This document shows positions 51,866 to 59,871 of a DNA stretch of 64,000 nucleotides, one piece after another. How positions within the stretch are numbered: the stretch's first letter is position 1; each line of letters opens with the position of its first letter. The position numbers were made by a program, and so were the translations under genes. This DNA is from a virus (Duplodnaviria > Heunggongvirae > Uroviricota > Caudoviricetes): the IMG/VR virus record IMGVR_UViG_2671180724_000008. The stretch is one strand, 5' to 3'. The notes beneath the pieces were generated by a model. That model had not been told where the DNA came from and searched no databases. It was given only the letters and a program-made list of their open reading frames with translations.

Positions 51866-52348
51866 ATGGCGGTAGTTGTGAAAGCTGATTTGTCAAAAAT
51901 CCCCTCTATTTCAGGAAATAATGGTTATTCACTTCGTTGTGAGGAAGTAAAGATAAACGGTGAGTCGGCATATTGCAGCTACTCCGTTTGCCAGCACACC
52001 ATTCTTGCCTTCAAAGAAAACCGTCTTCCTCGAACTTCATTCCAGTCGTGCGCAACCACTATCAAAGCAGGCAAATGCAAGGCGTTAAAAATGATGGTTG
52101 AAGAGATTCGTAAAGGAGAATCTCTGTATTTCGAAGATATGACCGCGCTCATTAAGGAGGTTGAAGAACGGAATAAACAAGCCAGAACTATAAAACGAAA
52201 ACGTGACAGTGTAACGATTAATAGCATGGTTAAGAAGAGCACCACATCACAAACAGCGATCACTGACGTGTATGCGGCGTTGCTTGAAGAAACAACAAAA
52301 GAAACACATGAGCAAATCGATCAACATATGGAGGCAAAACAACAATGA
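51866..52348 (+). CDS. Hypothetical protein (Cys-containing, basic)
   Basis: 160-aa ORF. Confidence 0.5.
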   Translation: MAVVVKADLSKIPSISGNNGYSLRCEEVKINGESAYCSYSVCQHTILAFKENRLPRTSFQSCATTIKAGKCKALKMMVEEIRKGESLYFEDMTALIKEVEERNKQARTIKRKRDSVTINSMVKKSTTSQTAITDVYAALLEETTKETHEQIDQHMEAKQQ

Positions 52349-53667
52349 AAAAGTTGATCGCACTTAAGCATAAGCTGGACGAAATGAAAGCTATGGGAAC
52401 CAATGCAAAAAAAGAGGCATTGGCCAACATGGATGACTTCGAGCAAAGCATGGTTTCATTGATGCTCAACCCTTTCATCCGTTTTGGGGTAAAGAAATAC
52501 AAAGTGGCAGAGCCGCTTAGTGAGTCCGTCCCAAGTGACGAAAAAGCCATTGATATACTGAATAAGCTGGCCTCTCGCGAGCTGACGGGGAACGCAGCAA
52601 TAGCTGCTGTTGAGTCTATCGTGGCGTCAATGTGCGCCGATGGGCAGGACGTGTTCCGTCGTTTCCTCTTAAAAGATCCGAAAGCTGGCGTTGGGATTAG
52701 CCTATGCAACAAGGTTTTTGAAAATCCCATTCCGAAATTCGAGGTGCAGCTGGCGTCACCGTATAAAGAAAAAGGCGACAAATACCCCTTCAAGCCAAAT
52801 CCTAAAGCAAAATGGCCGATGATTGGCAGCCTTAAGCTCGATGGTTTGCGAGTAATTTGCGAGGTTATTGTTGACGAGGAAGAGGTGAACTTCCTTTCTC
52901 GTACTGGTAATCCAATCACGTCTCTCGATCACCTAAAGCCAGCCATGCTCGAATTAGGCAAACTTTCAGGCCACAAACACATCTTCTTCGATGGTGAAGG
53001 AACAGCCGGTTCATTTAACAAGTCCGTATCTGCATTGCGCAAAAAGAACGTGCAGGCAATTGGCGCTATTTATCATGTTTTCGACTTCTTCCTACCGGAA
53101 TGGCGGGCACAGGCTAAATCCAAAGAGTATGCAAAGACAGGTATGAAGCTGAAAGAGCGCCTGGCTATTCTCGTGGCGTTGTTCAAAAACGATCGCAGTG
53201 AAGACTACGCGCAAGACATTCACCTACATCCGTTCTACATCATCCATAGCCACGAAGACTTCATCGAACGCTTCATGAAACGCCTGGACGATAACGAAGA
53301 AGGGGAGATGGGCAAAGATCCGAACTCTGTTTACGAGTTTAAACGTACCCGCAGCTGGTGGAAGTTAAAAGACGAAGATTCAGAAGATGGTGAAATTATC
53401 GACTTTGAGCCGGGCGACCCGGACTCTGGTTTTGCCAACACACTTGGAAAAATTGTTATTCGTCTTGAAAACGGCGTCATCGTTCGTGCGAGCGGCATTA
53501 AGCATAAATATCTGGACGAGATCTGGAACAACAAAGAGAAGTACCGTGGTCGTATTGTCGAGGTTCATTGTCACGAGAAAACACCGGACGGCAGCTTACG
53601 CCACCCACGACTGAAATGGCCGCGTTGCTTACGCGATACAGAAGATCGAATCGGAGATAAAGAATGA
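52345..53667 (+). CDS. ATP-dependent DNA ligase
   Basis: Adenylation motif GSLKLDGLR (KxDG), size 440 aa. Confidence 0.8.
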   Translation: MKKLIALKHKLDEMKAMGTNAKKEALANMDDFEQSMVSLMLNPFIRFGVKKYKVAEPLSESVPSDEKAIDILNKLASRELTGNAAIAAVESIVASMCADGQDVFRRFLLKDPKAGVGISLCNKVFENPIPKFEVQLASPYKEKGDKYPFKPNPKAKWPMIGSLKLDGLRVICEVIVDEEEVNFLSRTGNPITSLDHLKPAMLELGKLSGHKHIFFDGEGTAGSFNKSVSALRKKNVQAIGAIYHVFDFFLPEWRAQAKSKEYAKTGMKLKERLAILVALFKNDRSEDYAQDIHLHPFYIIHSHEDFIERFMKRLDDNEEGEMGKDPNSVYEFKRTRSWWKLKDEDSEDGEIIDFEPGDPDSGFANTLGKIVIRLENGVIVRASGIKHKYLDEIWNNKEKYRGRIVEVHCHEKTPDGSLRHPRLKWPRCLRDTEDRIGDKE

Positions 53668-53843
53668 TGCTCGGCTGGATGATTGCATTTTTAGCGGTTG
53701 GTTTTTTAATCGGTATTGTGGTGATGTCCAGTTGCATCAATGACTACATTAAAAGCGGTGTTATAGAACGACGCGGTCGTATTTATCGCATTGTAGAAAT
53801 AACCCACACAGTGAAGGAGATTAAGGATGATCGTATTAAGTAA
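53664..53843 (+). CDS. Small membrane protein (59 aa)
   Basis: Below the ORF-track cutoff; transmembrane helix plus RIYRIVEITH motif shared with the 54039 paralogue; ATGA overlap with ligase. Confidence 0.4.
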   Translation: MMLGWMIAFLAVGFLIGIVVMSSCINDYIKSGVIERRGRIYRIVEITHTVKEIKDDRIK

Positions 53844-54042
53844 GCGGGAGAAGGAAACGCTTCATGAAATCAGTAAGTGGCCGGAGTTCCCTGAGTACTG
53901 GAAGCCTAAAACGCGGGCTAAGTTAGAGCGGTTAGGGTTGGTTGCAAACGTTTCTGAAACGTGGTGTTCGGCCAACTACCAGTTAACTGATAAAGGGAAA
54001 GTATTGCTACAGCAATTAGTAGAATCAGGAGCGTTCAAATGA
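53827..54042 (+). CDS. Hypothetical small protein
   Basis: 71-aa ORF; ATGA overlap with next gene. Confidence 0.45.
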   Translation: MIVLSKREKETLHEISKWPEFPEYWKPKTRAKLERLGLVANVSETWCSANYQLTDKGKVLLQQLVESGAFK

Positions 54043-54191
54043 TTCCATACATCTCATTAGCTTTTATGGGTGGCTTCCTTATTGGCTTCGGCATCTGTCG
54101 TGATTTAATTAAGCAGGAACTTAAAACCAAAACACTGTGCATCGGAAAGCGTGTGTATCGGGTAGTTCATGAAACAAAGGTGAAAAAATGA
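54039..54191 (+). CDS. Small membrane protein (50 aa), paralogue of 53664-53843
   Basis: MIPYISLAFMGGFLIGF... single transmembrane helix; RVYRVVHETKV motif; ATGA overlaps on both sides. Confidence 0.4.
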   Translation: MIPYISLAFMGGFLIGFGICRDLIKQELKTKTLCIGKRVYRVVHETKVKK

Positions 54192-54478
54192 GCAATTTAA
54201 CTTCTTGGGAATGGTGGTTGGCCACCTATTTCTTAGCGGCCGGAGTCGCATTCGCCTTTTACGTAGGTCAGTTAGTCGTAAAACTGTTGCTGATTAAATT
54301 TGCTAGTCATAAACGTATCGATGATGGTCTGTGGCGTCTTGGCACCCTGGTGGAAACTCGCTACGGGCAACTTAAGGAGAACGAAACCATTACTATCCAA
54401 GCGAAACGATTCACTGCCACCATCACAAGAACACCTAGTCGTAGAGTGGCATTGATCAAAAAAGTCACAACCGAATAA
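54188..54478 (+). CDS. Small membrane protein (96 aa)
   Basis: N-terminal transmembrane helix; basic C-terminus. Confidence 0.5.
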   Translation: MSNLTSWEWWLATYFLAAGVAFAFYVGQLVVKLLLIKFASHKRIDDGLWRLGTLVETRYGQLKENETITIQAKRFTATITRTPSRRVALIKKVTTE

Positions 54479-54868
54479 AAACATATTGATAAGTATTTAC
54501 TTACTTATCTTTTGTGTATAAGATGACTTTGTTTTCGTTGAGACGCGACTGTTTGAACTTAAATACAAGTGCAAACGAAGAAGTCTATCTGGCAGTAGCC
54601 TAATAAGCCAAACACCAGCGAGGTCAGTTTCCAGCCTCGTTACCGAAATGGGACACACTGAGCGAGTGTGATTGCAGAACGCAGGAGGGAACATTCATGT
54701 TCCCTCCGATGAAGTAACAGAATGGGCGGTTGGTATATTTTCAACTCCATATGACTCCCGGATTCTTAGCCACTGACCGCCCATCCTGTTACGTCATTTT
54801 GTTCAATTATGTCGTTTATACTGGGTTAAAAAGCGGCGACGTAGCCCGGCTGGTATGGTTAGCCAGCA

Positions 54869-54990
54869 CACAACGTTGAGGCCATTACATTTTTATCAAT
54901 TCTAAGGTTCTATTCACAGAGATACCGGCGAGCGTTGATATGTAACATGTTGGGCAAACATTCAATCGGAGTAGTGGCCTCAACGTTGTG
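54869..54990. repeat. Long-range inverted repeat (20-bp arms cacaacgttgaggccattac / gtagtggcctcaacgttgtg, ~80-nt loop)
   Basis: Read directly; one of five large hairpins in the tRNA region. Confidence 0.6.
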
Positions 54991-55255
54991 AAGACGGGAT
55001 TGTTGTGTAGGTTTAACCACTGTTGCCATTGGTGCCTGTTTTCACAACAAATGATTCCATACATCACATTGTATAAATTACAAAGTAGGTGCTGTCCTCA
55101 GAAACATCATCTACTTAAAGATTTTGCCTTCTACTATTGAGCGAAGTCGAAAGCGTCTGGCACTAACGAAAAGTGCAAGTAGCGGTGCGTTTCCTGGCAG
55201 AAACTAAACCGTCGCGATTGGCACTGTTGAGTAATAAATACTGGCAGTGCTGAAT

Positions 55256-55331
55256 TGATGGTGTAGCTCAGCGGTAGAGCAGTTGGCTGTTAACCAACTG
55301 GTCGGTGGTTCGAATCCACCCACCATCGCCA
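55256..55331 (+). tRNA. tRNA-Asn (anticodon GTT), phage-type
   Basis: Manual cloverleaf fold: acceptor GATGGTG/CACCATC, anticodon loop CTGTTAA, T-loop GGTTCGAATCC, encoded CCA; differs from E. coli tRNA-Asn. Confidence 0.85.
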
Positions 55332-55336
55332 ATTTA

Positions 55337-55423
55337 GGGGAGTTAGTCCGTAGAGGTAGCGGTGTAGACTGTAAATCTACTGTCATTGCGACTCGGGTGG
55401 TTCGACTCCATCACTCCCCACCA
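55337..55423 (+). tRNA. tRNA-Tyr (anticodon GTA) with long variable arm
   Basis: Acceptor GGGGAGT/ACTCCCC, anticodon loop CTGTAAA, T-loop GGTTCGACTCC, encoded CCA. Confidence 0.8.
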
Positions 55424-55427
55424 AATT

Positions 55428-55503
55428 GCCGGTTTAGCTCAGTTGGTAGAGCGCCTGCCTTGTAAGCAGGATGTCAGCGGTTCGTGTCCGTTAACCGGCA
55501 CCA
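55428..55503 (+). tRNA. tRNA-Thr (anticodon TGT)
   Basis: Acceptor GCCGGTT/AACCGGC, anticodon loop CTTGTAA, T-loop GGTTCGTGTCC, encoded CCA. Confidence 0.8.
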
Positions 55504-55507
55504 ACAT

Positions 55508-55595
55508 AATATTGAGAACATTGGCGTAACGGGGTCATATCCCAATCTATGAATAAATGTTACGTTGCCGCGTGACAACCAGTGTTCTCAACATT
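55508..55595. repeat. Nested inverted repeat immediately 3' of tRNA-Thr (aatattgagaacattgg / ccagtgttctcaacatt with inner cgtaac/gttacg)
   Basis: Read directly; candidate processing element or small structured RNA. Confidence 0.55.
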
Positions 55596-56170
55596 GTGGT
55601 GAATGCACAGGCTGATGTGCCGCAACTACAGTAGTGCGCGCTTTGCGGGGCTTGCTACAACCCTGTGTCGGAGATCAGCGCCGACCATCACAATTTGGCT
55701 CTCTTGCAACAGCATAACGCTGAAATATGTCCAACCTGGTGCGGCCTGTTCACCCGCCGTTAGCTCCACGAAACGGAGCGCACAACAGATAAGAGAACTT
55801 CCCATATGGGGCTTGGCTTAAATGCATCGAGTTCTCTTATCGCTGTGTCACAGACAAATTTCCGACAGCCCTGTTTATCATCGGACGCAACCTAAAAGGT
55901 CGAGGCAAAGCCAGGTAATAGCGGAGGGAGTGACACAGCACACAACAGGTAAGAGCATTTGTAGAGTTCGACTCTCTACCGTGGGCTTTTTCCCGCGATG
56001 CGAGCCATAAATGCTCTTTCCGTTGTGGTGGATTCGCAGACTGATGCGATAGCTTTCTTGGATGTTAGGGAAATGCGGCCGCAAATCTTCCCTTTCGCGA
56101 GCGGTGATCGTCCGTAGTCCTAATTGGCTGCACCGTATGCCGGAGATTCAGTACCGGCCACCACAACGGC

Positions 56171-56257
56171 CGGAGAGTAGGGAGCATGGTGCTCAAGCGG
56201 TCTTGAAAACCGTCCCATTGTGCAAACGATGATGGTTCGATTCCATTACTCTCCGCC
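56171..56257 (+). tRNA. tRNA-Ser (anticodon TGA) with long variable arm
   Basis: Acceptor GGAGAGT/ACTCTCC, anticodon loop CTTGAAA, T-loop GGTTCGATTCC, encoded CCA. Confidence 0.8.
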
Positions 56258-56260
56258 AGA

Positions 56261-56336
56261 CACAGCGTTGAGCGGTTTGGCCTTTTAATCAACTCGATTA
56301 AGACTCCGCTAACATAAACCAGACCGCTCAACGCTG
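56261..56336. repeat. 19-bp-arm inverted repeat immediately 3' of tRNA-Ser (acagcgttgagcggtttgg / ccagaccgctcaacgctgt)
   Basis: Read directly; one mismatch, 38-nt loop. Confidence 0.6.
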
Positions 56337-56414
56337 TGATAGACAATTACGGCAGACGTTCTTAACCATAGCTTGCTAACATCCTAGCAACACTTTTTTT
56401 CAGCGCAAAATTCA

Positions 56415-56436
56415 AAGGGGCTTCGGCCCCTTTTTT
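56415..56436. terminator. Bidirectional rho-independent terminator
   Basis: ggggc ttcg gcccc hairpin with A-run upstream and tttttt downstream; sits between the tRNA region and the end of the minus-strand gene. Confidence 0.7.
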
Positions 56437-56453
56437 GAAAGCAATGGGCAAGT

Positions 56454-57788
56454 TCATGCCAAATTATCCAGATTTCTTTTCTTTTTTTCAATTATATTTC
56501 TCGCGCCAGAAAAAATTTTACTCAAAATAATTGATTTGCTTGCTCTATTATTAAGATGTAACAACGCGCTATAAAATACATAGTTATCTATTTTACTATT
56601 TAAAGTATTCCCAAGCTTCCCGTTATATGTGCTATTAATAGTATTAAAATATACATGTTCAGGACCTATATTACAAATACCCCTATCAACTCGCTTTAAA
56701 TAATGTTTAACTAAAGAAATAGCATCTTCCTTATCATTAATAACATAAAGTCCTGAGCGTTTACCTAGCTTGCTGTCCGAGAATAATTTATAACCAACAA
56801 GTTCATTTAACGTATTATCCACTTTTGTCAACTCTTTGTTGGCAATCTCCAAATAATACTCAATCTCTTTCTCCATATTACTTATTAAAGAGTTAAATTC
56901 TGCTCGTAACAAATCACCACCAGGTGATTTATAACTCCATAAAATTGAATTGGTAATACGTACTACGTCAGATACTTCTGGTTTCTCTGAATAGTTTTTG
57001 TATCTAGTGCAAATAATGCTGTGCTTTATATATTCTCTAACTAATGATCGATAATCCCTTTCGAAAAGGTTTTTGACATCTAGTCTTCCATTGCTTGTTG
57101 TTATTAAGGTGGTGTTTAAAACTGGGTCGCCTTCAAAAAAATTATATTTATTTAGTAATCGTTTTAGCTTGTGTGAATTATGTGATGTTTCGCCATAATA
57201 ATTTATCCCAAAAATAGCAATTATTAGCATAACATCAGGAGTGATGAAATGTCGTAATTGCTCGGCATAAACTTTTTTATCTTCGATTTTCGAAGATGGA
57301 GAGTAAAAACCTTTGTCTATATATTCTAATATTGAAACAATATTACTAACATAACGTATAAAAACTTGATTCATTACAACGGAATCATAAACCTGATGCA
57401 AATAATCTACTCTCAAGTTGTTTTTTATTTTTTCCCCTGTACTAGATGATAACTCTTCTTTTACCTGCCCAAGTAGCTTTTCGTGGTGCTCCAGCAATGT
57501 TTTAAACCATTGTTCAAATGATGATTTTCTTGCCTCAGTTAATGAATCTGATGTTATCTGGACAGCTTTCATAGCTGCTTTCGCACTTTTCTTTGCTTCA
57601 TAAGCGTTCCATGCTGAAGCACAAAAAGCTGCCGCCGTGATGCAACTGGTAAAAATAGAAATCCTATCTGCAACATTCAAGCTCCAGAACCAATCAGACG
57701 ATGAAATCAAAACCACAGATATTACGGGAACAATGAAAATCAAAACAGGCATGTATGTACTCGCTCTAATAGTTATTAGTCGAGGCAA
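56454..57788 (-). CDS. Low-GC 444-aa membrane-anchored protein of unknown function (candidate abortive-infection or defence cargo)
   Basis: Two N-terminal transmembrane segments then a large Lys/Asn/Tyr/Ile-rich soluble domain; strongly AT-rich codon usage unlike the rest of the element; own promoter and terminator. Confidence 0.6.
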   Translation of the reverse strand: MPRLITIRASTYMPVLIFIVPVISVVLISSSDWFWSLNVADRISIFTSCITAAAFCASAWNAYEAKKSAKAAMKAVQITSDSLTEARKSSFEQWFKTLLEHHEKLLGQVKEELSSSTGEKIKNNLRVDYLHQVYDSVVMNQVFIRYVSNIVSILEYIDKGFYSPSSKIEDKKVYAEQLRHFITPDVMLIIAIFGINYYGETSHNSHKLKRLLNKYNFFEGDPVLNTTLITTSNGRLDVKNLFERDYRSLVREYIKHSIICTRYKNYSEKPEVSDVVRITNSILWSYKSPGGDLLRAEFNSLISNMEKEIEYYLEIANKELTKVDNTLNELVGYKLFSDSKLGKRSGLYVINDKEDAISLVKHYLKRVDRGICNIGPEHVYFNTINSTYNGKLGNTLNSKIDNYVFYSALLHLNNRASKSIILSKIFSGARNIIEKKKRNLDNLA

Positions 57789-57845
57789 ATATTATATAAA
57801 TCTCGTTATGATTTACAGACATGTATACGTATTGCTAATTATCAC

Positions 57846-57883
57846 CAACAAATGATAGGTGTGTACATATCTATCATTTGTTG
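57846..57883. promoter_or_regulatory. Perfect 13-bp inverted repeat caacaaatgatag / ctatcatttgttg in the divergent promoter region
   Basis: Read directly; lies between the start of the minus-strand 444-aa gene and the plus-strand glutaredoxin gene. Confidence 0.55.
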
Positions 57884-57930
57884 TAAAATTAATGTATACG
57901 CTATGAATACACTAATAATATGAGGTAATC

Positions 57931-58176
57931 ATGACTATCGTTATCTACGGACGAGATAACTGTTCATACTGCAAACGTGCGGTCGAGCTGGCGAAGCAAC
58001 TAAAGGGACATGGCTACGGTGATTATGAGTACATCGACATCACTACTACCGGTATCGATAAGGAAAAACTTAGCGAAATTGTTGGTAAACCGGTAGAGAC
58101 TATACCCCAGGTACTGATCGATGGCCAGCCGATTGGCGGATACACAGAACTGGCTGCATACGTCAGCACCCTCTGA
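57931..58176 (+). CDS. Glutaredoxin (NrdH/Grx-like)
   Basis: 81 aa with CSYC active-site motif near the N-terminus and thioredoxin-fold length. Confidence 0.75.
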   Translation: MTIVIYGRDNCSYCKRAVELAKQLKGHGYGDYEYIDITTTGIDKEKLSEIVGKPVETIPQVLIDGQPIGGYTELAAYVSTL

Positions 58177-58180
58177 TTTT

Positions 58181-58206
58181 AACGGCTCACAGGAGCCGTT
58201 TTTATT
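58181..58206 (+). terminator. Rho-independent terminator after glutaredoxin gene
   Basis: aacggctc acag gagccgtt hairpin plus ttta. Confidence 0.6.
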
Positions 58207-58254
58207 CCCACCAAACTCACTCCCGTTTCCCTTAAAATTCAAAAAACAACGTCA

Positions 58255-58288
58255 AAATGATTCCATACCTACTATGTATGGAATCATT
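58255..58288. promoter_or_regulatory. 13-bp inverted repeat aatgattccatac / gtatggaatcatt (7-nt spacer) upstream of integrase
   Basis: Read directly; the half-site aaatgattccatac also occurs at 54031-54050 and 55046-55063. Confidence 0.55.
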
Positions 58289-58386
58289 CGTGAAAATGAG
58301 TTACTTTTACTCTTGATCCTATAAGAATCTATGCCTAATATACTGTTTACTTATACAGTGAATCGGCGTAACTCGGTGATTGTCAT

Positions 58387-59490
58387 ATGAAAAATAGCTT
58401 TGACAGAGCACGCGCTGCGGAGAACACCTCAAAAGAGGCGATTGAGTATCTCGAAAGAGCATCTCAAATGCAGGCCGTTATGATCTCGCAGGTTAGCAAT
58501 GACATGAGATTCTCGGACGCATTCATGTTATTCACTCGCTTATCTCTGCTTATAACCAGACGTCGGCCAGAGATCGCTGTTCATTGTATTTTGATACATG
58601 TTTTGCCGCACATTGCTGATGTAAAAGTAAGTGACATTAATAGGTTCATGGTGAACCAACTGGTAAACCCACTAATACTGGATGGCAAAATTGTTATGGG
58701 CCGCCGCGTTTTCTCTCTGATGAAGCAGTTCCTTAGCTGGTGCGCCTTCCAGGGGATGATAGACGTGTCACCGTTAAACGATATGTCACTAAACAAAGTT
58801 GCCGGTGGCGCAAAGCCCACACCTCGCGAGCGGAAGCTGACCGACGCAGAGGTATGGGTGTTCTGGAATATATGGGACTACTTCAATGTGTGCGCTGGTA
58901 CAAAATGGGCGGCCAGGCTGTGTCTTGTATCAGCAAGACGACCTGACGAAGTACTGCGGGCTAAAAAAAGTGAGTTCAATCTTAAGCGTGGGGTTTGGAA
59001 TCAAGGCAAGAGAAACAAGTCAGCACGTGAGCATTCGCTGCCTTTAAGCACATTAATGCGCACATGCATTGAAGAGTTGTTCGAATACGGTAAAGACAGC
59101 CAGTGGCTCGTGCCTTCGAATAAAAAAATCGGGAAAGACCTTCCTATGTCTAAAGTGGCAATAGCCCAGGCATTACGTCGTATTCTGGAACGACCAGAAC
59201 TGATGGAGCTTGAGCCATTTACACCCCGAGATTTGCGCCGTACTGCGCGTAGTTACTTCCCAGCATTAGGCATAAGCCAGGAGGTATCACGCAAAATCAT
59301 GAACCACAGTCTTGAGGGGATAGATCGGGTCTACGACCGGCACGATTATATGGACGAGATGCGAGACGCCTTAGAAAGTTTCTCGACGTACATCGCATCA
59401 ATCGTAGAGCAACCGGATTTAGACGAAATTGACCACAAATTCAAGGGAGATCGTCTATCAACAGAGCTTATTCGTGTAAATTTTTCATAG
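58387..59490 (+). CDS. Tyrosine integrase (site-specific recombinase)
   Basis: C-terminal catalytic pattern: Arg in RRPDEV, HSLEGIDRVYDRHDY region with His/Arg and terminal Tyr; 367 aa. Confidence 0.85.
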   Translation: MKNSFDRARAAENTSKEAIEYLERASQMQAVMISQVSNDMRFSDAFMLFTRLSLLITRRRPEIAVHCILIHVLPHIADVKVSDINRFMVNQLVNPLILDGKIVMGRRVFSLMKQFLSWCAFQGMIDVSPLNDMSLNKVAGGAKPTPRERKLTDAEVWVFWNIWDYFNVCAGTKWAARLCLVSARRPDEVLRAKKSEFNLKRGVWNQGKRNKSAREHSLPLSTLMRTCIEELFEYGKDSQWLVPSNKKIGKDLPMSKVAIAQALRRILERPELMELEPFTPRDLRRTARSYFPALGISQEVSRKIMNHSLEGIDRVYDRHDYMDEMRDALESFSTYIASIVEQPDLDEIDHKFKGDRLSTELIRVNFS

Positions 59491-59871
59491 AGACTTTATG
59501 GCCTCAACAACCTTTTGTGATGCGCCTTTCTCTTTACCGAATCGCTCGTTATATGCAGCAAGAACCTGTTTTTCGTCCTCGTTAAGAGGAGCGGTGCCTT
59601 CTTTGTATAAAAATGCTGCGAGTTCAGGTTGGCGTTCTTCCAGCACCATCATCATAAGACGACTTGGCTCAATACCCAGCGCCAGCGCCAGCGGACGAAC
59701 CTTATCGATAGGCAAAGGAATTTTGCCACTTTTAATTAAAGAAAGGTTGTTGGCATTTTTATAACCAATAAGTCTGGCTATTTGGGCCTGACTCATAGGT
59801 GAGGATTCAATCAGCCCTGCGATAAAAGCAGCATAGCGACTTTCTATAAATTCAATCTTGTTGTCAGACAT
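59485..59871 (-). CDS. XRE-family helix-turn-helix transcriptional regulator (CI/Cro-like repressor)
   Basis: HTH segment SQAQIARLIGYKNANNLSLIKSG; convergent with integrase, 6-nt overlap. Confidence 0.75.
   Translation of the reverse strand: MSDNKIEFIESRYAAFIAGLIESSPMSQAQIARLIGYKNANNLSLIKSGKIPLPIDKVRPLALALGIEPSRLMMMVLEERQPELAAFLYKEGTAPLNEDEKQVLAAYNERFGKEKGASQKVVEAIKSL

What the first reader, a model, noticed from the sequence alone, without database searches (positions are those of the whole stretch)
53664..54478. Three tandem small membrane proteins with ATGA overlaps and a repeated N-terminal gene cassette
After the ligase gene, four short genes are chained by ATGA overlaps. Two (59 aa and 50 aa) are paralogues: one transmembrane helix plus an R(I/V)YR(I/V)VE(I/T) motif. 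A third (96 aa) also has an N-terminal transmembrane helix. The first codons of the 54039 gene (atgattccatac, MIPY) recur at 55046 and 58257 as apparent gene remnants; the last lies inside the inverted repeat upstream of the integrase. Small single-pass membrane proteins in multiple copies may be toxins, holin-like modulators or exclusion factors.
Basis: seen in the sequence. Interest (0 to 1): 0.55.

Follow-up and report, generated by a model that had tools for sequence, protein, structure and literature searches.

The report
Recombinase half-sites mistaken for gene remnants
The four small genes after the ligase are real, but the repeated "MIPY" sequence is one arm of the DNA site of the neighbouring integrase, and single copies of that arm are conserved at fixed places in a family of phage-plasmids that includes the plague plasmid pMT1.

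Summary
The window is an SSU5/pHCM2/pMT1-type phage-plasmid, 97.6% identical to Escherichia phage Cyrano.

**The genes.** The four ORFs at 53664-54478 are real genes under purifying selection (omega about 0.06-0.2).
- Three are single-pass membrane proteins. orf59 and orf50 are distant paralogues (hhalign 94%).
- The fourth, orf71, is a soluble winged-helix protein.
- Three of the four junctions are ATGA overlaps; the orf59/orf71 overlap is 17 nt.
- Their Cyrano orthologues are silent in plasmid-carrying cells, so they look like lytic-module genes. Their function is unknown.

**The repeat.** The "repeated N-terminal cassette" is not a gene remnant.
- ATGATTCCATAC is the arm of a perfect 13-7-13 palindrome (58256-58288) just upstream of a tyrosine recombinase gene.
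- The arms change along with the recombinase in distant plasmids, and the 7-bp spacer varies freely.
- Lone copies, extended to ATGATTCCATACATC, sit at the orf50 start, after a structured non-coding RNA (55051), and inside dnaE beyond the window.
- All lone copies point toward the palindrome. They hold these positions in about 90 related loci and are conserved even at synonymous codon positions.
- Why lone arms are kept is unresolved.

**Noticed in passing.** The non-coding RNA carries a tmRNA-like tag, ANEEVYLAVA.

The parts
52345..53667 (+). ATP-dependent DNA ligase. It is the last large gene of the replication module, and its stop overlaps the orf59 start (ATGA).
   Evidence: Pfam DNA_ligase_A_M E 4e-13. 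Annotated as DNA ligase in Cyrano and SSU5.
53664..53843 (+). orf59: small single-pass membrane protein (TM about residues 7-25, basic C-tail with RGRIYRIVEIT). Orthologue of SSU5_045, phrog_4381.
   Evidence: Family of 36 clusters, all from SSU5-like elements. pN 0.12-0.19 against pS 0.52-0.71. Kyte-Doolittle 2.60.
53827..54042 (+). orf71: soluble small winged-helix protein, probably DNA-binding. Orthologue of SSU5_046, phrog_4054. It overlaps orf59 by 17 nt, and its stop lies inside lone site 1.
   Evidence: AF2 pLDDT 78, topology H-H-E-E-H. Foldseek PDB top hits are MarR/PadR winged-helix domains (prob 0.9-0.99, TMq 0.66-0.71, E 0.04-0.5). pN 0.07-0.24 against pS 0.63-0.93.
54039..54191 (+). 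orf50: small single-pass membrane protein and distant paralogue of orf59 (TM about residues 2-20, C-tail IGKRVYRVVHET). Orthologue of SSU5_047, phrog_6302.
   Evidence: hhalign against the orf59 family Prob 94%. omega 0.09-0.19.
54188..54478 (+). orf96: single-pass membrane protein with a C-terminal cytoplasmic domain. Orthologue of SSU5_048 (mis-named 'C-type natriuretic protein'), phrog_4507.
   Evidence: Only 19 representatives in 1.84 billion clusters. AF2 is low confidence: helix 3-59 plus a beta hairpin. omega 0.06-0.12.
54039..54053 (+). Lone site 1: ATGATTCCATACATC, coinciding with the orf71 stop and orf50 codons 1-5 (MIPYI).
   Evidence: In 33 of 34 distinct variants from related loci, 29 carry the 15-mer unchanged and 4 differ at one base, while the flanks vary; the 34th entry is an unrelated 1-mismatch hit the script picked up.
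54520..55050 (+). Conserved structured non-coding RNA between orf96 and tRNA-Asn. It carries a tmRNA-like tag module at 54571-54606 (GCA AAC GAA GAA GTC TAT CTG GCA GTA GCC TAA TAA = ANEEVYLAVA**). A putative promoter (TTTACT..TATAAG) lies at about 54496-54524.
   Evidence: Alignment of 8 lineages. RNAalifold gives 131 pairs, 13 with compensatory double changes. The only Rfam hit is weak, to beta_tmRNA (E 0.085). ARAGORN finds nothing by default and calls a permuted tmRNA with this tag only at -ps70.
55051..55065 (+). Lone site 2: ATGATTCCATACATC in non-coding DNA, at the 3' side of the non-coding RNA and about 190 bp before tRNA-Asn.
   Evidence: Present with at most one changed base in 28 distinct variants. 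The downstream frame is not conserved.
58256..58288 (.). Perfect palindrome AATGATTCCATAC-CTACTAT-GTATGGAATCATT. Proposed core recombination site of the adjacent tyrosine recombinase.
   Evidence: The arms are invariant and the 7-bp spacer varies in 51 distinct variants. Integrases of 59% and 47% identity have their own palindromes with changed arms.
58313..58341 (+). Putative integrase promoter TTGATC-17-TAATAT, between the palindrome and the int start.
   Evidence: Read from the sequence. The consensus scan did not list it, so this is inference only.
58387..59490 (+). Tyrosine recombinase ('integrase'), 367 aa. It has the catalytic and central domains but no arm-binding N-domain.
   Evidence: PF00589 E 5e-10 and Phage_int_M. 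phrog_1. R, RxxR, H and Y positions are invariant in the alignment. The Cyrano orthologue is expressed in lysogens.
58993..59004 (-). Degraded integrase-internal copy (TTGATTCCAAAC on the minus strand; codons V-W-N-Q). It is an intact TGATTCCATACATC in the pHCM2/pMT1, Klebsiella and Citrobacter lineages.
   Evidence: Largely explained by conserved W-N-Q codons, so its status as a site is uncertain.
59485..59871 (-). XRE-family HTH regulator convergent with int (called 'putative repressor' in Cyrano).
   Evidence: phrog_8 E 7e-12. Weak HTH_19 hit. Always next to int in phage-plasmids but absent next to the Erwinia and Pantoea homologues.

Best explanation
**The genes.** The interval holds four translationally coupled genes at the end of the replication module of an SSU5/pHCM2/pMT1-type phage-plasmid. 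They are orf59 (membrane), orf71 (small winged-helix protein), orf50 (membrane, distant paralogue of orf59) and orf96 (membrane). The three membrane proteins are predicted N-out/C-in, with short basic cytoplasmic tails.

They are most likely made during lytic growth. I infer weakly that they act at the inner face of the membrane, for example as anchors or modulators linked to the replication module.

**The repeat.** The repeated 'MIPY' DNA is not a gene remnant. ATGATTCCATAC is the recognition arm of the element's tyrosine recombinase. The full site is the 13-7-13 palindrome at 58256-58288, directly upstream of int. It most likely serves Cre/lox- or Xer/dif-like plasmid multimer resolution.

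**The lone copies.** Single copies of the arm, extended to ATGATTCCATACATC, are kept by selection on the DNA itself at three places:
- the orf50 start codon;
- after a structured non-coding RNA, at 55051;
- about 250 nt into dnaE, about 6 kb right of the palindrome and outside the window.

All are oriented toward the palindrome. I infer that they are auxiliary binding sites for recombinase monomers, with a regulatory or architectural role.

**What is shown and what is inferred.**
- Shown: gene reality, paralogy, the site architecture, its conservation, and the changed arms next to divergent recombinases.
- Inferred: that Int binds the sites, that the palindrome resolves multimers, and what the lone sites and the small proteins do.
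For: **Genes**
- pN is far below pS for all four ORFs, and the hydropathy and charge pattern fits N-out/C-in.
- Each ORF falls in a PHROG family.
- The orf50, orf59 and orf71 families are confined to contigs of about 100-112 kb.
- The orf50 and orf59 family profiles match at hhalign Prob 94%.
- orf71 has a winged-helix fold.
- CYRAN_37-39 sit at the read floor in lysogens, while int and the XRE gene are expressed.

**Site**
- Four exact 12-mers occur in the window, against 0 in shuffles.
- In the whole Cyrano and SSU5 genomes the motif occurs only in this zone of about 13 kb.
- The order site1+, site2+, [palindrome + -], (int-internal -), dnaE - holds in wherever these positions are covered in 80 IMG/VR loci and 10 plasmid lineages.
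- The arms are invariant while the spacer varies: CTACTAT, CTATTAA, TTAATAG, TTGGTAG, CTATAAA, CTTACAG.
- Integrase homologues of 59% and 47% identity each have a 7-bp-spacer palindrome directly upstream, with arms GTGATTCCATAC and TGACTCCAGAC. The Erwinia and Pantoea ones sit in non-phage megaplasmids and have no XRE neighbour.
- In dnaE, with sequences collected independently of the site, GATGTATGGAATCAT is present in 45 of 47 distinct sequences. There is no synonymous change at TGT, GAA or TCA, although neighbouring codons vary freely. The preceding hypervariable codon is always NGA.
- Int has PF00589 plus a central domain and no arm-binding domain, which fits a simple-site recombinase.
Against: - No experiment links Int to the palindrome or to the lone sites.
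- SSU5 itself lacks int, the XRE gene and the palindrome, yet keeps sites 1 and 6 intact and site 2 with one mismatch. Its close relatives do carry int, so the loss is probably recent.
- The lone sites share an extra ATC, and a loose ATTAG a few bases on, that the palindrome arms lack. They may therefore be read by something else or by a complex.
- In the divergent Klebsiella group (L018) the orf50 homologue keeps I-P-Y with synonymous changes while the DNA site is degraded. MIPY is therefore also constrained as protein.
- The int-internal copy is largely explained by conserved V-W-N-Q codons.
- Lone half-sites kilobases from a core site have no established role in tyrosine-recombinase systems.
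- The function of the small proteins rests only on context and expression.
Confidence: 0.62

Rival explanations
1. One reading: the copies at about 55050 and 58257 are remnants of duplicated copies of the orf50-type gene, a decayed cassette array of small membrane toxins or exclusion factors.
For: orf59 and orf50 are true paralogues, so duplication has occurred in this locus. The copies begin with ATG and could encode MIPY.
Against: - Identity ends after 15-23 nt.
- The frames after site 2 stop after 5-6 codons in other lineages.
- The 58257 copy is half of a perfect palindrome.
- An inverted copy lies inside dnaE.
- The 15-mer is far better conserved than the rest of orf50, including at synonymous positions.
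- A decaying remnant would do the opposite.
Confidence: 0.03
2. The 15-mers are operators of another DNA-binding protein of the element, such as the winged-helix orf71 whose gene ends inside site 1, or the XRE regulator next to int. That protein would co-regulate orf50-orf96, the non-coding RNA and tRNA unit, int and dnaE, and the palindrome would be a dimeric operator of the int promoter.
For: - orf71 has a winged-helix fold.
- The lone sites carry extra conserved bases (ATC, then about ATTAG) that are absent from the palindrome arms.
- The palindrome lies about 25 bp upstream of a good -35/-10 pair for int.
- SSU5 keeps the lone sites without int or the XRE gene but does keep orf71.
Against: - The palindrome travels with the integrase alone in Erwinia and Pantoea megaplasmids, which have no XRE neighbour and are not phage-plasmids. 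Its arms there are changed.
- Arms of 12-13 bp around a freely variable 7-bp spacer are the standard anatomy of a tyrosine-recombinase core site.
- A plasmid lacking orf71 (L014) keeps all sites, although that deletion may be recent.
Confidence: 0.15
3. The lone arms are working secondary recombination sites, like shufflon sfx sites (one conserved 12-bp arm plus a 7-bp core). Int would use them for inversions between opposed sites, or for capture and exchange of the cargo that lies between site 2 and the palindrome.
For: - sfx sites have a 12-bp conserved arm, a 7-bp core and a variable second arm (PMC11852207).
- The lone sites face each other across the palindrome.
- The site 2-to-palindrome interval varies from 1.2 to 6.1 kb.
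- That interval holds different cargo in different lineages: tRNAs, an Abi-like gene and grx here; the caf1 capsule operon in pMT1; toxin and immunity genes in Klebsiella; a resistance island in Enterobacter.
- Resistance-gene insertions in SSU5-like elements cluster in one locus near PhoH and the ligase (PMC9600943).
- Sites 1 and 6 share 19 nt in the E. coli clade.
Against: - No inverted or deleted arrangement between sites appears in about 90 loci.
- Only 3 of the 7 'core' positions are conserved, and partner sites usually differ there.
- Inversion between site 1 or 2 and site 6 would destroy dnaE.
- Homology between lineages does not break at site 2, because tRNA-Asn follows it everywhere.
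- The 25 bp left of the palindrome are related across cargo types, so breakpoints are not exactly at the arm.
Confidence: 0.1
4. The copies act at the RNA level. All genes here are on the + strand, so dnaE mRNA carries the antisense of the orf50 start region and of the non-coding RNA's 3' flank, and the palindrome forms a hairpin. The pairing would couple dnaE and orf50 expression.
For: There are 15-20 nt of perfect complementarity covering the orf50 start codon. In the E. coli clade, site 1 and site 6 share four further bases (ATCTCAT).
Against: - Flank identity beyond the 15-mer is absent in the SSU5 and Klebsiella clades.
- The partners lie 5-10 kb apart.
- The palindrome sits upstream of the int promoter rather than within an obvious transcript.
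- The same motif forms recombinase-linked palindromes in plasmids that have none of these genes.
Confidence: 0.05

Closest known systems
Cre/loxP of phage-plasmid P1 and Xer/dif-type simple tyrosine-recombinase resolution systems
   Same: - The recombinase gene sits next to a site made of inverted 12-13-bp arms around a 6-8-bp spacer.
- The recombinase has no arm-binding N-domain.
- The element is a low-copy plasmid-prophage that needs multimer resolution.
- The arms track the recombinase lineage while the spacer is free to vary.
   Different: - The spacer is 7 bp, against 8 in loxP.
- There is no detectable sequence match to any solved recombinase.
- Conserved lone arms lie kilobases away, inside genes and oriented toward the core site. 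This is not a known feature of Cre/lox or Xer/dif.
- Recombination has not been tested.
R64 shufflon (Rci recombinase and asymmetric sfx sites)
   Same: The sites have one conserved 12-bp arm, a 7-bp central region and an unconserved second arm. Several sites lie in both orientations near the recombinase gene (PMC11852207).
   Different: - Here a fully symmetric site also exists.
- The 7-bp region of the lone sites is mostly not conserved.
- The sites are kilobases apart, inside essential genes.
- No inversion variants were seen.
- No alternative protein C-termini are generated.
Tn4430 TnpI internal resolution site and integron attI (core site plus accessory direct repeats of the same recombinase motif); from my own knowledge
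   Same: The same recognition motif is used both in the inverted core pair and as extra single copies that bind the recombinase without being cleaved.
   Different: In those systems the accessory motifs lie within about 100 bp of the core and on one side. Here they are 0.7-6 kb away, on both sides, in mirror orientation.
PHROG families 4381, 4054, 6302 and 4507 (SSU5_045-048; pMT1 and pHCM2 hypothetical proteins)
   Same: The four ORFs are full-length members (E 1e-36 to 1e-58).
   Different: None. These families have no assigned function, and the RefSeq name 'C-type natriuretic protein' for the orf96 family is spurious.
Hok/Gef-type and other small single-pass phage membrane proteins (toxins, holins, T4 Imm/Sp-like exclusion proteins)
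   Same: Size (50-96 aa), one N-terminal transmembrane helix, and a short charged tail with an RxYR-like stretch.
   Different: - No profile match in Pfam or PADLOC.
- The predicted tail is cytoplasmic.
- There is no antisense RNA or lysis-gene context.
- The genes are not expressed in lysogens.

Membership tests
Tyrosine recombinase (Phage_integrase, PF00589) | Catalytic domain profile match above the Pfam threshold | tested here: met
   PF00589 39.9 bits against a cut-off of 27.1; phrog_1 E 8.5e-47.
Tyrosine recombinase (Phage_integrase, PF00589) | Conserved catalytic R ... (H/R)xxR ... H/W ... Y residues | tested here: met
   R184/R185, R281-D-L-R284, H307 and Y316 are invariant across homologues of 46-100% identity. 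Assignment to catalytic roles is by motif position only.
Simple-site resolution system (Cre/lox-like, Xer/dif-like) | Inverted arms of 11-14 bp around a 6-8 bp spacer, next to the recombinase gene | tested here: met
   13-7-13 at 58256-58288, about 100 bp upstream of int. Same layout in all related loci.
Simple-site resolution system (Cre/lox-like, Xer/dif-like) | Arms co-vary with the recombinase across lineages | tested here: met
   ATGATTCCATAC where Int is at least 82% identical; GTGATTCCATAC at 59%; TGACTCCAGAC at 47% (Erwinia, Pantoea).
Simple-site resolution system (Cre/lox-like, Xer/dif-like) | The recombinase resolves plasmid dimers at the site | not testable with these tools
   Needs an in vivo or in vitro recombination assay.
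Shufflon (Rci/sfx) | All sites share a conserved 7-bp core as well as one arm | tested here: not met
   Only ATC of the 7 positions is conserved at the lone sites, and the palindrome spacer is different again.
Shufflon (Rci/sfx) | Segments between opposed sites are found inverted in different isolates | tested here: not met
   Order and orientation are identical in 80 IMG/VR loci and 10 plasmid lineages.
Hok/Gef or other named small membrane toxin, holin or defence protein (orf59, orf50, orf96) | Profile match to the family | tested here: not met
   No Pfam hit at or near threshold. No PADLOC hit. PHROG families are of unknown function.
Winged-helix (MarR/PadR-like) DNA-binding fold (orf71) | Helix-turn-helix plus beta-hairpin wing topology matching solved wHTH domains | tested here: met
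   AF2 topology H-H-E-E-H, pLDDT 78. Foldseek top 50 are dominated by MarR/PadR/SlyA, TMq up to 0.71, though E-values are only 0.04-0.5. Pfam HTH_45 E 0.17. This is fold resemblance, not family membership.
tmRNA (SsrA) - for the non-coding RNA noticed at 54520-55050 | Tag reading frame starting at a GCA resume codon and ending in hydrophobic residues plus a stop | tested here: met
   The tags are ANEEVYLAVA**, ANEDTYLAVA*, ANDNQYLAVA* and ANDDVVLMAA*, and the frame is conserved across lineages.
tmRNA (SsrA) - for the non-coding RNA noticed at 54520-55050 | tRNA-like domain (acceptor stem with G:U, T-arm, CCA end) | tested here: not met
   ARAGORN default is negative in the window and 10 loci. 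Rfam gives only 14 bits to beta_tmRNA. No T-arm is seen in the SSU5-group alignment. A permuted call appears only at -ps70, among false positives.

The most novel reading that the evidence does not exclude
The SSU5/pHCM2/pMT1 phage-plasmids may carry a polar array. Lone recombinase arms on both sides, some written into protein-coding sequence (the orf50 N-terminus and a loop of DnaE), point at a Cre/lox-like core site. Together with Int they would form a functional device with no described counterpart. It could be a fork or transcription trap centred on the resolution site. It could be Int-dependent repression of the lytic replication genes in the plasmid state. Or it could be a directional guide for rearrangements at the cargo hotspot that holds the Y. 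pestis F1 capsule operon and resistance islands. Site 2 would mark the 3' end of a previously unrecognised tmRNA-like RNA.
Probability: 0.2. Interest if true: 0.75.

Novelty: new variant of a known kind. Interest (0 to 1): 0.5.

Why it matters
**Scale.** This plasmid-prophage family is very common in Enterobacterales. The search found 858 PLSDB records with this locus. It includes Y. pestis pMT1 and S. Typhi pHCM2.

**What the work adds.**
- It assigns a candidate recombination site to the family's conserved 'integrase', probably the missing multimer-resolution system.
- It shows that the site's arm is re-used as single copies under DNA-level selection, even inside dnaE and at a start codon. 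That pattern is not described for tyrosine recombinases.
- The variable segment next to the site holds the caf1 capsule operon in pMT1 and antibiotic-resistance islands in Enterobacter. How Int and its sites act there bears on how these elements acquire cargo.

**For annotation.** It warns against reading short repeated ATG-led motifs as gene remnants.

**The small proteins.** The membrane proteins themselves remain ordinary conserved hypotheticals.

Tried and rejected
- **Homology for the small proteins.** Pfam, NCBIfam, PADLOC and PHROG searches gave no functional family.
- **orf96 and the paralogues.** I could not link orf96 to the orf59/orf50 pair. The AF2 model of orf96 was too poor (pLDDT 65) to search with.
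- **Promoter or terminator reading of the 15-mer.** There is no good -35/-10 around sites 1 or 2. The grx terminator is separate, at 58181-58200.
- **Second arm at the lone sites.** A hidden second arm at a 6-8 bp spacing was looked for; 0-2 of 12 positions match (read).
- **Integron, DnaA-box, Ter, IHF and parS readings.** Compared by eye from memory. None match, and none were formally tested.
- **Cargo breakpoints at the left arm.** I tested whether cargo breakpoints abut the left arm exactly. The 25 bp to its left share a loose CAGAWTT-A-rich pattern across cargo types, so the break lies further out and the idea was dropped.
- **Int-internal copy as a selected site.** It is mostly explained by the V-W-N-Q codons and is degraded in this window.
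- **Literature.** Searches for the arm sequence, for tmRNA with pHCM2 or SSU5, and for the pMT1 integrase with inverted repeats found nothing relevant.
- **Non-coding RNA against E. coli ssrA.** Nucleotide similarity is limited to the tag and is no better than shuffles.


Full report
**What the window is.** The region 53600-54600 is 97.6% identical to Escherichia phage Cyrano (the pLF82 phage-plasmid) and 76% identical to Salmonella phage SSU5. Gene order matches both: helicase, primase, two hypotheticals, ligase, four small ORFs, tRNAs, variable genes, integrase, XRE regulator, cobT/cobS, dnaE. A distant search with 53600-55300 finds 858 plasmid records in Klebsiella, Escherichia, Enterobacter, Yersinia pestis (pMT1), Salmonella (pHCM2-like), Citrobacter and Cronobacter.

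**Checking the observation.**
- ATGA overlaps join ligase/orf59, orf71/orf50 and orf50/orf96. The orf59/orf71 overlap is 17 nt.
- All four belong to PHROG families of unknown function. Nei-Gojobori counts between four lineages give pN 0.07-0.25 against pS 0.52-0.93, so they are real genes.
- orf59, orf50 and orf96 each have one strongly hydrophobic segment and a net positive C-side (+3, +7, +7), which predicts an N-out/C-in topology. orf71 is soluble.
- orf59 and orf50 align at 33% identity (E 1e-5). Their family profiles match over the full length (hhalign Prob 94%, E 1e-7), so they are distant paralogues.
- The shared motif is R(I/V)YR(I/V)V. orf96 is not detectably related to the other two.
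- Each family is confined to SSU5-like contigs. orf96 has only 19 representatives among 1.84 billion clusters.

**orf71.** AlphaFold2 with a 12-sequence alignment gives a helix-helix-hairpin-helix fold (pLDDT 78). The best PDB matches are MarR/PadR/SlyA winged-helix domains, with probability up to 0.99 and TMq up to 0.71, but E-values of only 0.04-0.5. It is probably a small DNA-binding protein.

**Expression.** In the LF82 RNA-seq table (PMC9928086, S1 Table), CYRAN_37, 38 and 39 correspond to orf71, orf50 and orf96. In overnight LB cultures they sit at or near the floor (log2 2.3-3.0), like the ligase. In the same data the integrase is at 5.6, the XRE 'repressor' at 6.4-6.8, and a neighbouring moron at 13.4. 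The small genes therefore behave like lytic-module genes, not like lysogeny-expressed exclusion or toxin genes.

**The repeated 'MIPY' DNA.** ATGATTCCATAC occurs four times exactly in the window, at 54039+, 55051+, 58257+ and 58276-, against none in 100 shuffles. The last two copies form a perfect palindrome, AATGATTCCATAC-CTACTAT-GTATGGAATCATT, at 58256-58288. This lies about 100 bp upstream of the integrase start, with a TTGATC-17-TAATAT promoter-like pair in between.

In the complete Cyrano and SSU5 genomes the motif occurs nowhere else, except for one further inverted copy about 250 nt into dnaE. That copy lies beyond the end of this window.

**Conserved architecture.** I scanned ten plasmid lineages: E. 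coli, Y. pestis pMT1, three Klebsiella, Citrobacter, pHCM2-like Salmonella, Enterobacter, a second E. coli type, and SSU5. I also scanned 80 IMG/VR loci retrieved with the integrase. They show one layout:

| Element | Position | Strand |
|---|---|---|
| Site 1 | orf50 start | + |
| Site 2 | about 1.0-1.3 kb downstream of site 1 | + |
| Palindrome | upstream of int | + and - arms |
| Int-internal copy | +735 from the palindrome | - |
| dnaE copy | +6.0-6.3 kb from the palindrome | - |

Every lone copy points at the palindrome. The distance from site 2 to the palindrome varies from 1.2 to 6.1 kb. That interval holds lineage-specific cargo:
- here, tRNAs, a 444-aa Abi-like ORF and grx;
- in pMT1, the caf1 F1-capsule operon, with site 2 lost;
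- in Klebsiella, phoH, Gp49, a YafO toxin and a colicin-immunity gene;
- in Enterobacter, a class 1 integron resistance island.

This matches the published remark that resistance insertions in SSU5-like elements cluster in one locus near PhoH and the ligase (PMC9600943).

**The palindrome is the recombinase's site.**
- Across 51 distinct variants the arms never change, while the 7-bp spacer does: CTACTAT, CTATTAA and its flip TTAATAG, TTGGTAG, CTATAAA, CTTACAG, TCCTTAG.
- An integrase of 59% identity in another Klebsiella phage-plasmid group has TGTGATTCCATAC-CTATAGA-GTATGGAATCACA directly upstream.
- Integrases of 47% identity in Erwinia and Pantoea megaplasmids have ATGACTCCAGAC-7-GTCTGGAGTCAT directly upstream. 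Those plasmids have no phage genes and no XRE neighbour.
- The protein has the PF00589 catalytic domain and a central domain but no arm-binding N-domain. The expected R, RxxR, H and Y positions are invariant.

This is the anatomy of a simple-site tyrosine recombinase such as Cre/loxP or XerCD/dif. For a low-copy plasmid-prophage, multimer resolution is the obvious role. That role is inferred, not shown.

**The lone copies are selected as DNA.**
- *Conservation of the 15-mer.* At sites 1, 2 and 6, ATGATTCCATACATC is almost invariant across 28-34 distinct variants, while the flanks diverge.
- *Site 2.* It is non-coding, and the frame after it stops after 5-6 codons in other lineages.
- *The dnaE copy.* I collected sequences through an independent anchor, the TALIKNE motif 13 codons downstream. 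In 79 loci (47 distinct sequences), 45 of 47 carry GATGTATGGAATCAT. The codons TGT, GAA and TCA never change synonymously. Most neighbouring codons with invariant amino acids do change; only about 6 of about 75 degenerate codons are fixed. The two preceding codons are hypervariable in amino acid, but the second is always NGA (R or G), as the 15-mer demands.
- *orf50.* MIPYI is invariant while the transmembrane segment that follows is the most variable part of the protein.

Two cautions apply. In the divergent L018 group the orf50 homologue starts TTGATCCCATATCTT. I-P-Y is kept through synonymous changes while the DNA site decays, so the N-terminus is also constrained as protein. The int-internal copy is largely accounted for by conserved V-W-N-Q codons. 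It is degraded in this window and absent from the Erwinia and Pantoea genes.

**What the lone copies do is unresolved.**
- They have no second arm, and only ATC of the would-be spacer is conserved.
- No inversion or deletion between them appears in about 90 loci. This argues against a shufflon-like system, whose sfx sites otherwise look similar: a 12-bp conserved arm, a 7-bp core and a variable arm (PMC11852207).
- Homology between lineages does not break at site 2 or exactly at the left arm.
- SSU5 lacks int, the XRE gene and the palindrome but keeps sites 1, 2 and 6. Its close relatives have int, so this looks like a recent deletion.
- My preferred reading is auxiliary Int-monomer binding sites with a regulatory or architectural role.
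- A different reader protein, with orf71 as an obvious candidate, cannot be excluded.
- No paper in the library contains the arm sequence in this context.

**A separate observation.** The 780 bp between orf96 and tRNA-Asn are more conserved than the flanking genes. They fold into a consensus structure of 131 pairs, 13 with compensatory double changes.

Near the 5' end lies a conserved frame, GCA AAC GAA GAA GTC TAT CTG GCA GTA GCC TAA TAA, which reads ANEEVYLAVA**. The other lineages give ANEDTYLAVA, ANDNQYLAVA and ANDDVVLMAA. This strongly recalls the enterobacterial SsrA tag ANDENYALAA, which I cite from my own knowledge.

No tRNA-like domain was found:
- ARAGORN is negative by default.
- Rfam gives only a 14-bit hit to beta_tmRNA.
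- A permuted call with this tag appears only at a relaxed threshold, among false positives.

Site 2 sits at the 3' side of this RNA. I flag this as a lead, not a finding.

**Verdict.** The 'gene remnant' interpretation is wrong. The toxin, holin or exclusion idea is unsupported. The small proteins are ordinary conserved hypotheticals of a known phage-plasmid family. The conserved, oriented lone recombinase arms are new as far as I could check, and they are worth an experiment.

Noticed in passing
window 54520-55050 (+), tag frame 54571-54606: A conserved structured non-coding RNA of about 520 nt with its own promoter-like TTTACT..TATAAG. It carries a tmRNA-like tag frame (ANEEVYLAVA**; ANEDTYLAVA, ANDNQYLAVA and ANDDVVLMAA in relatives) but no recognisable tRNA-like domain. 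It is not in Rfam, ARAGORN is negative by default, and no literature was found.
   Followed up: partly
window 55066-58255, between site 2 and the palindrome: A variable cargo hotspot of the family. Here it holds four tRNAs (Asn, Tyr, Thr, Ser), a 444-aa ORF and grx. The caf1 F1-capsule operon sits here in Y. pestis pMT1 (L010), toxin and immunity genes in Klebsiella, and a class 1 integron resistance island in Enterobacter (L016).
   Followed up: partly
window 56454-57788 (-): A 444-aa ORF with N-terminal hydrophobic segments (phrog_18168). It has a weak match to Pfam putAbiC (abortive infection; E 3e-4, 21.7 bits against a cut-off of 22) and no PADLOC hit. It may be a defence cargo gene.
   Followed up: no
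window 57846-57883: A palindrome, CAACAAATGATAG-12-CTATCATTTGTTG, in the divergent promoter region between the 444-aa ORF and grx. It shares the 12-mer ACAACAAATGAT with the left flank of site 2 (55044-55055). Not found in the 11 other loci checked; seen only in this window's cargo.
   Followed up: partly
window 56261-56280 / 56319-56338: A 20-bp-stem hairpin (CACAGCGTTGAGCGGTTTGG...) just after tRNA-Ser. It resembles the long stem of the non-coding RNA at 54869-54888 / 54971-54990 (CACAACGTTGAGGCC...). It may be a repeated RNA module.
   Followed up: no
L018 3075-3290 (Klebsiella plasmid NZ_CP097685): In this divergent phage-plasmid the orf71 homologue is split by a +1 frameshift after 14 codons. 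This is either a pseudogene or a sequencing error. Its stop overlaps the orf50 homologue's TTG start as TTGA. The non-coding region there is about 1 kb and contains three tRNA-like pieces that ARAGORN calls only at a relaxed threshold.
   Followed up: no
L014 (K. pneumoniae NZ_CP050344) and L012 (K. grimontii): L014 has no annotated ligase, orf59 or orf71 but keeps orf50 and orf96 and all the sites. L012 has an unrelated 138-aa gene in place of orf96. The four small genes are therefore individually dispensable for plasmid maintenance.
   Followed up: no
palindrome variants in L021-L100: Some loci with the same flanks carry the spacer in flipped form (CTATTAA versus TTAATAG). One dnaE site carries a 9-bp tandem duplication (ATACATCTC) right at the 15-mer, which hints at activity at these sites.
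   Followed up: no
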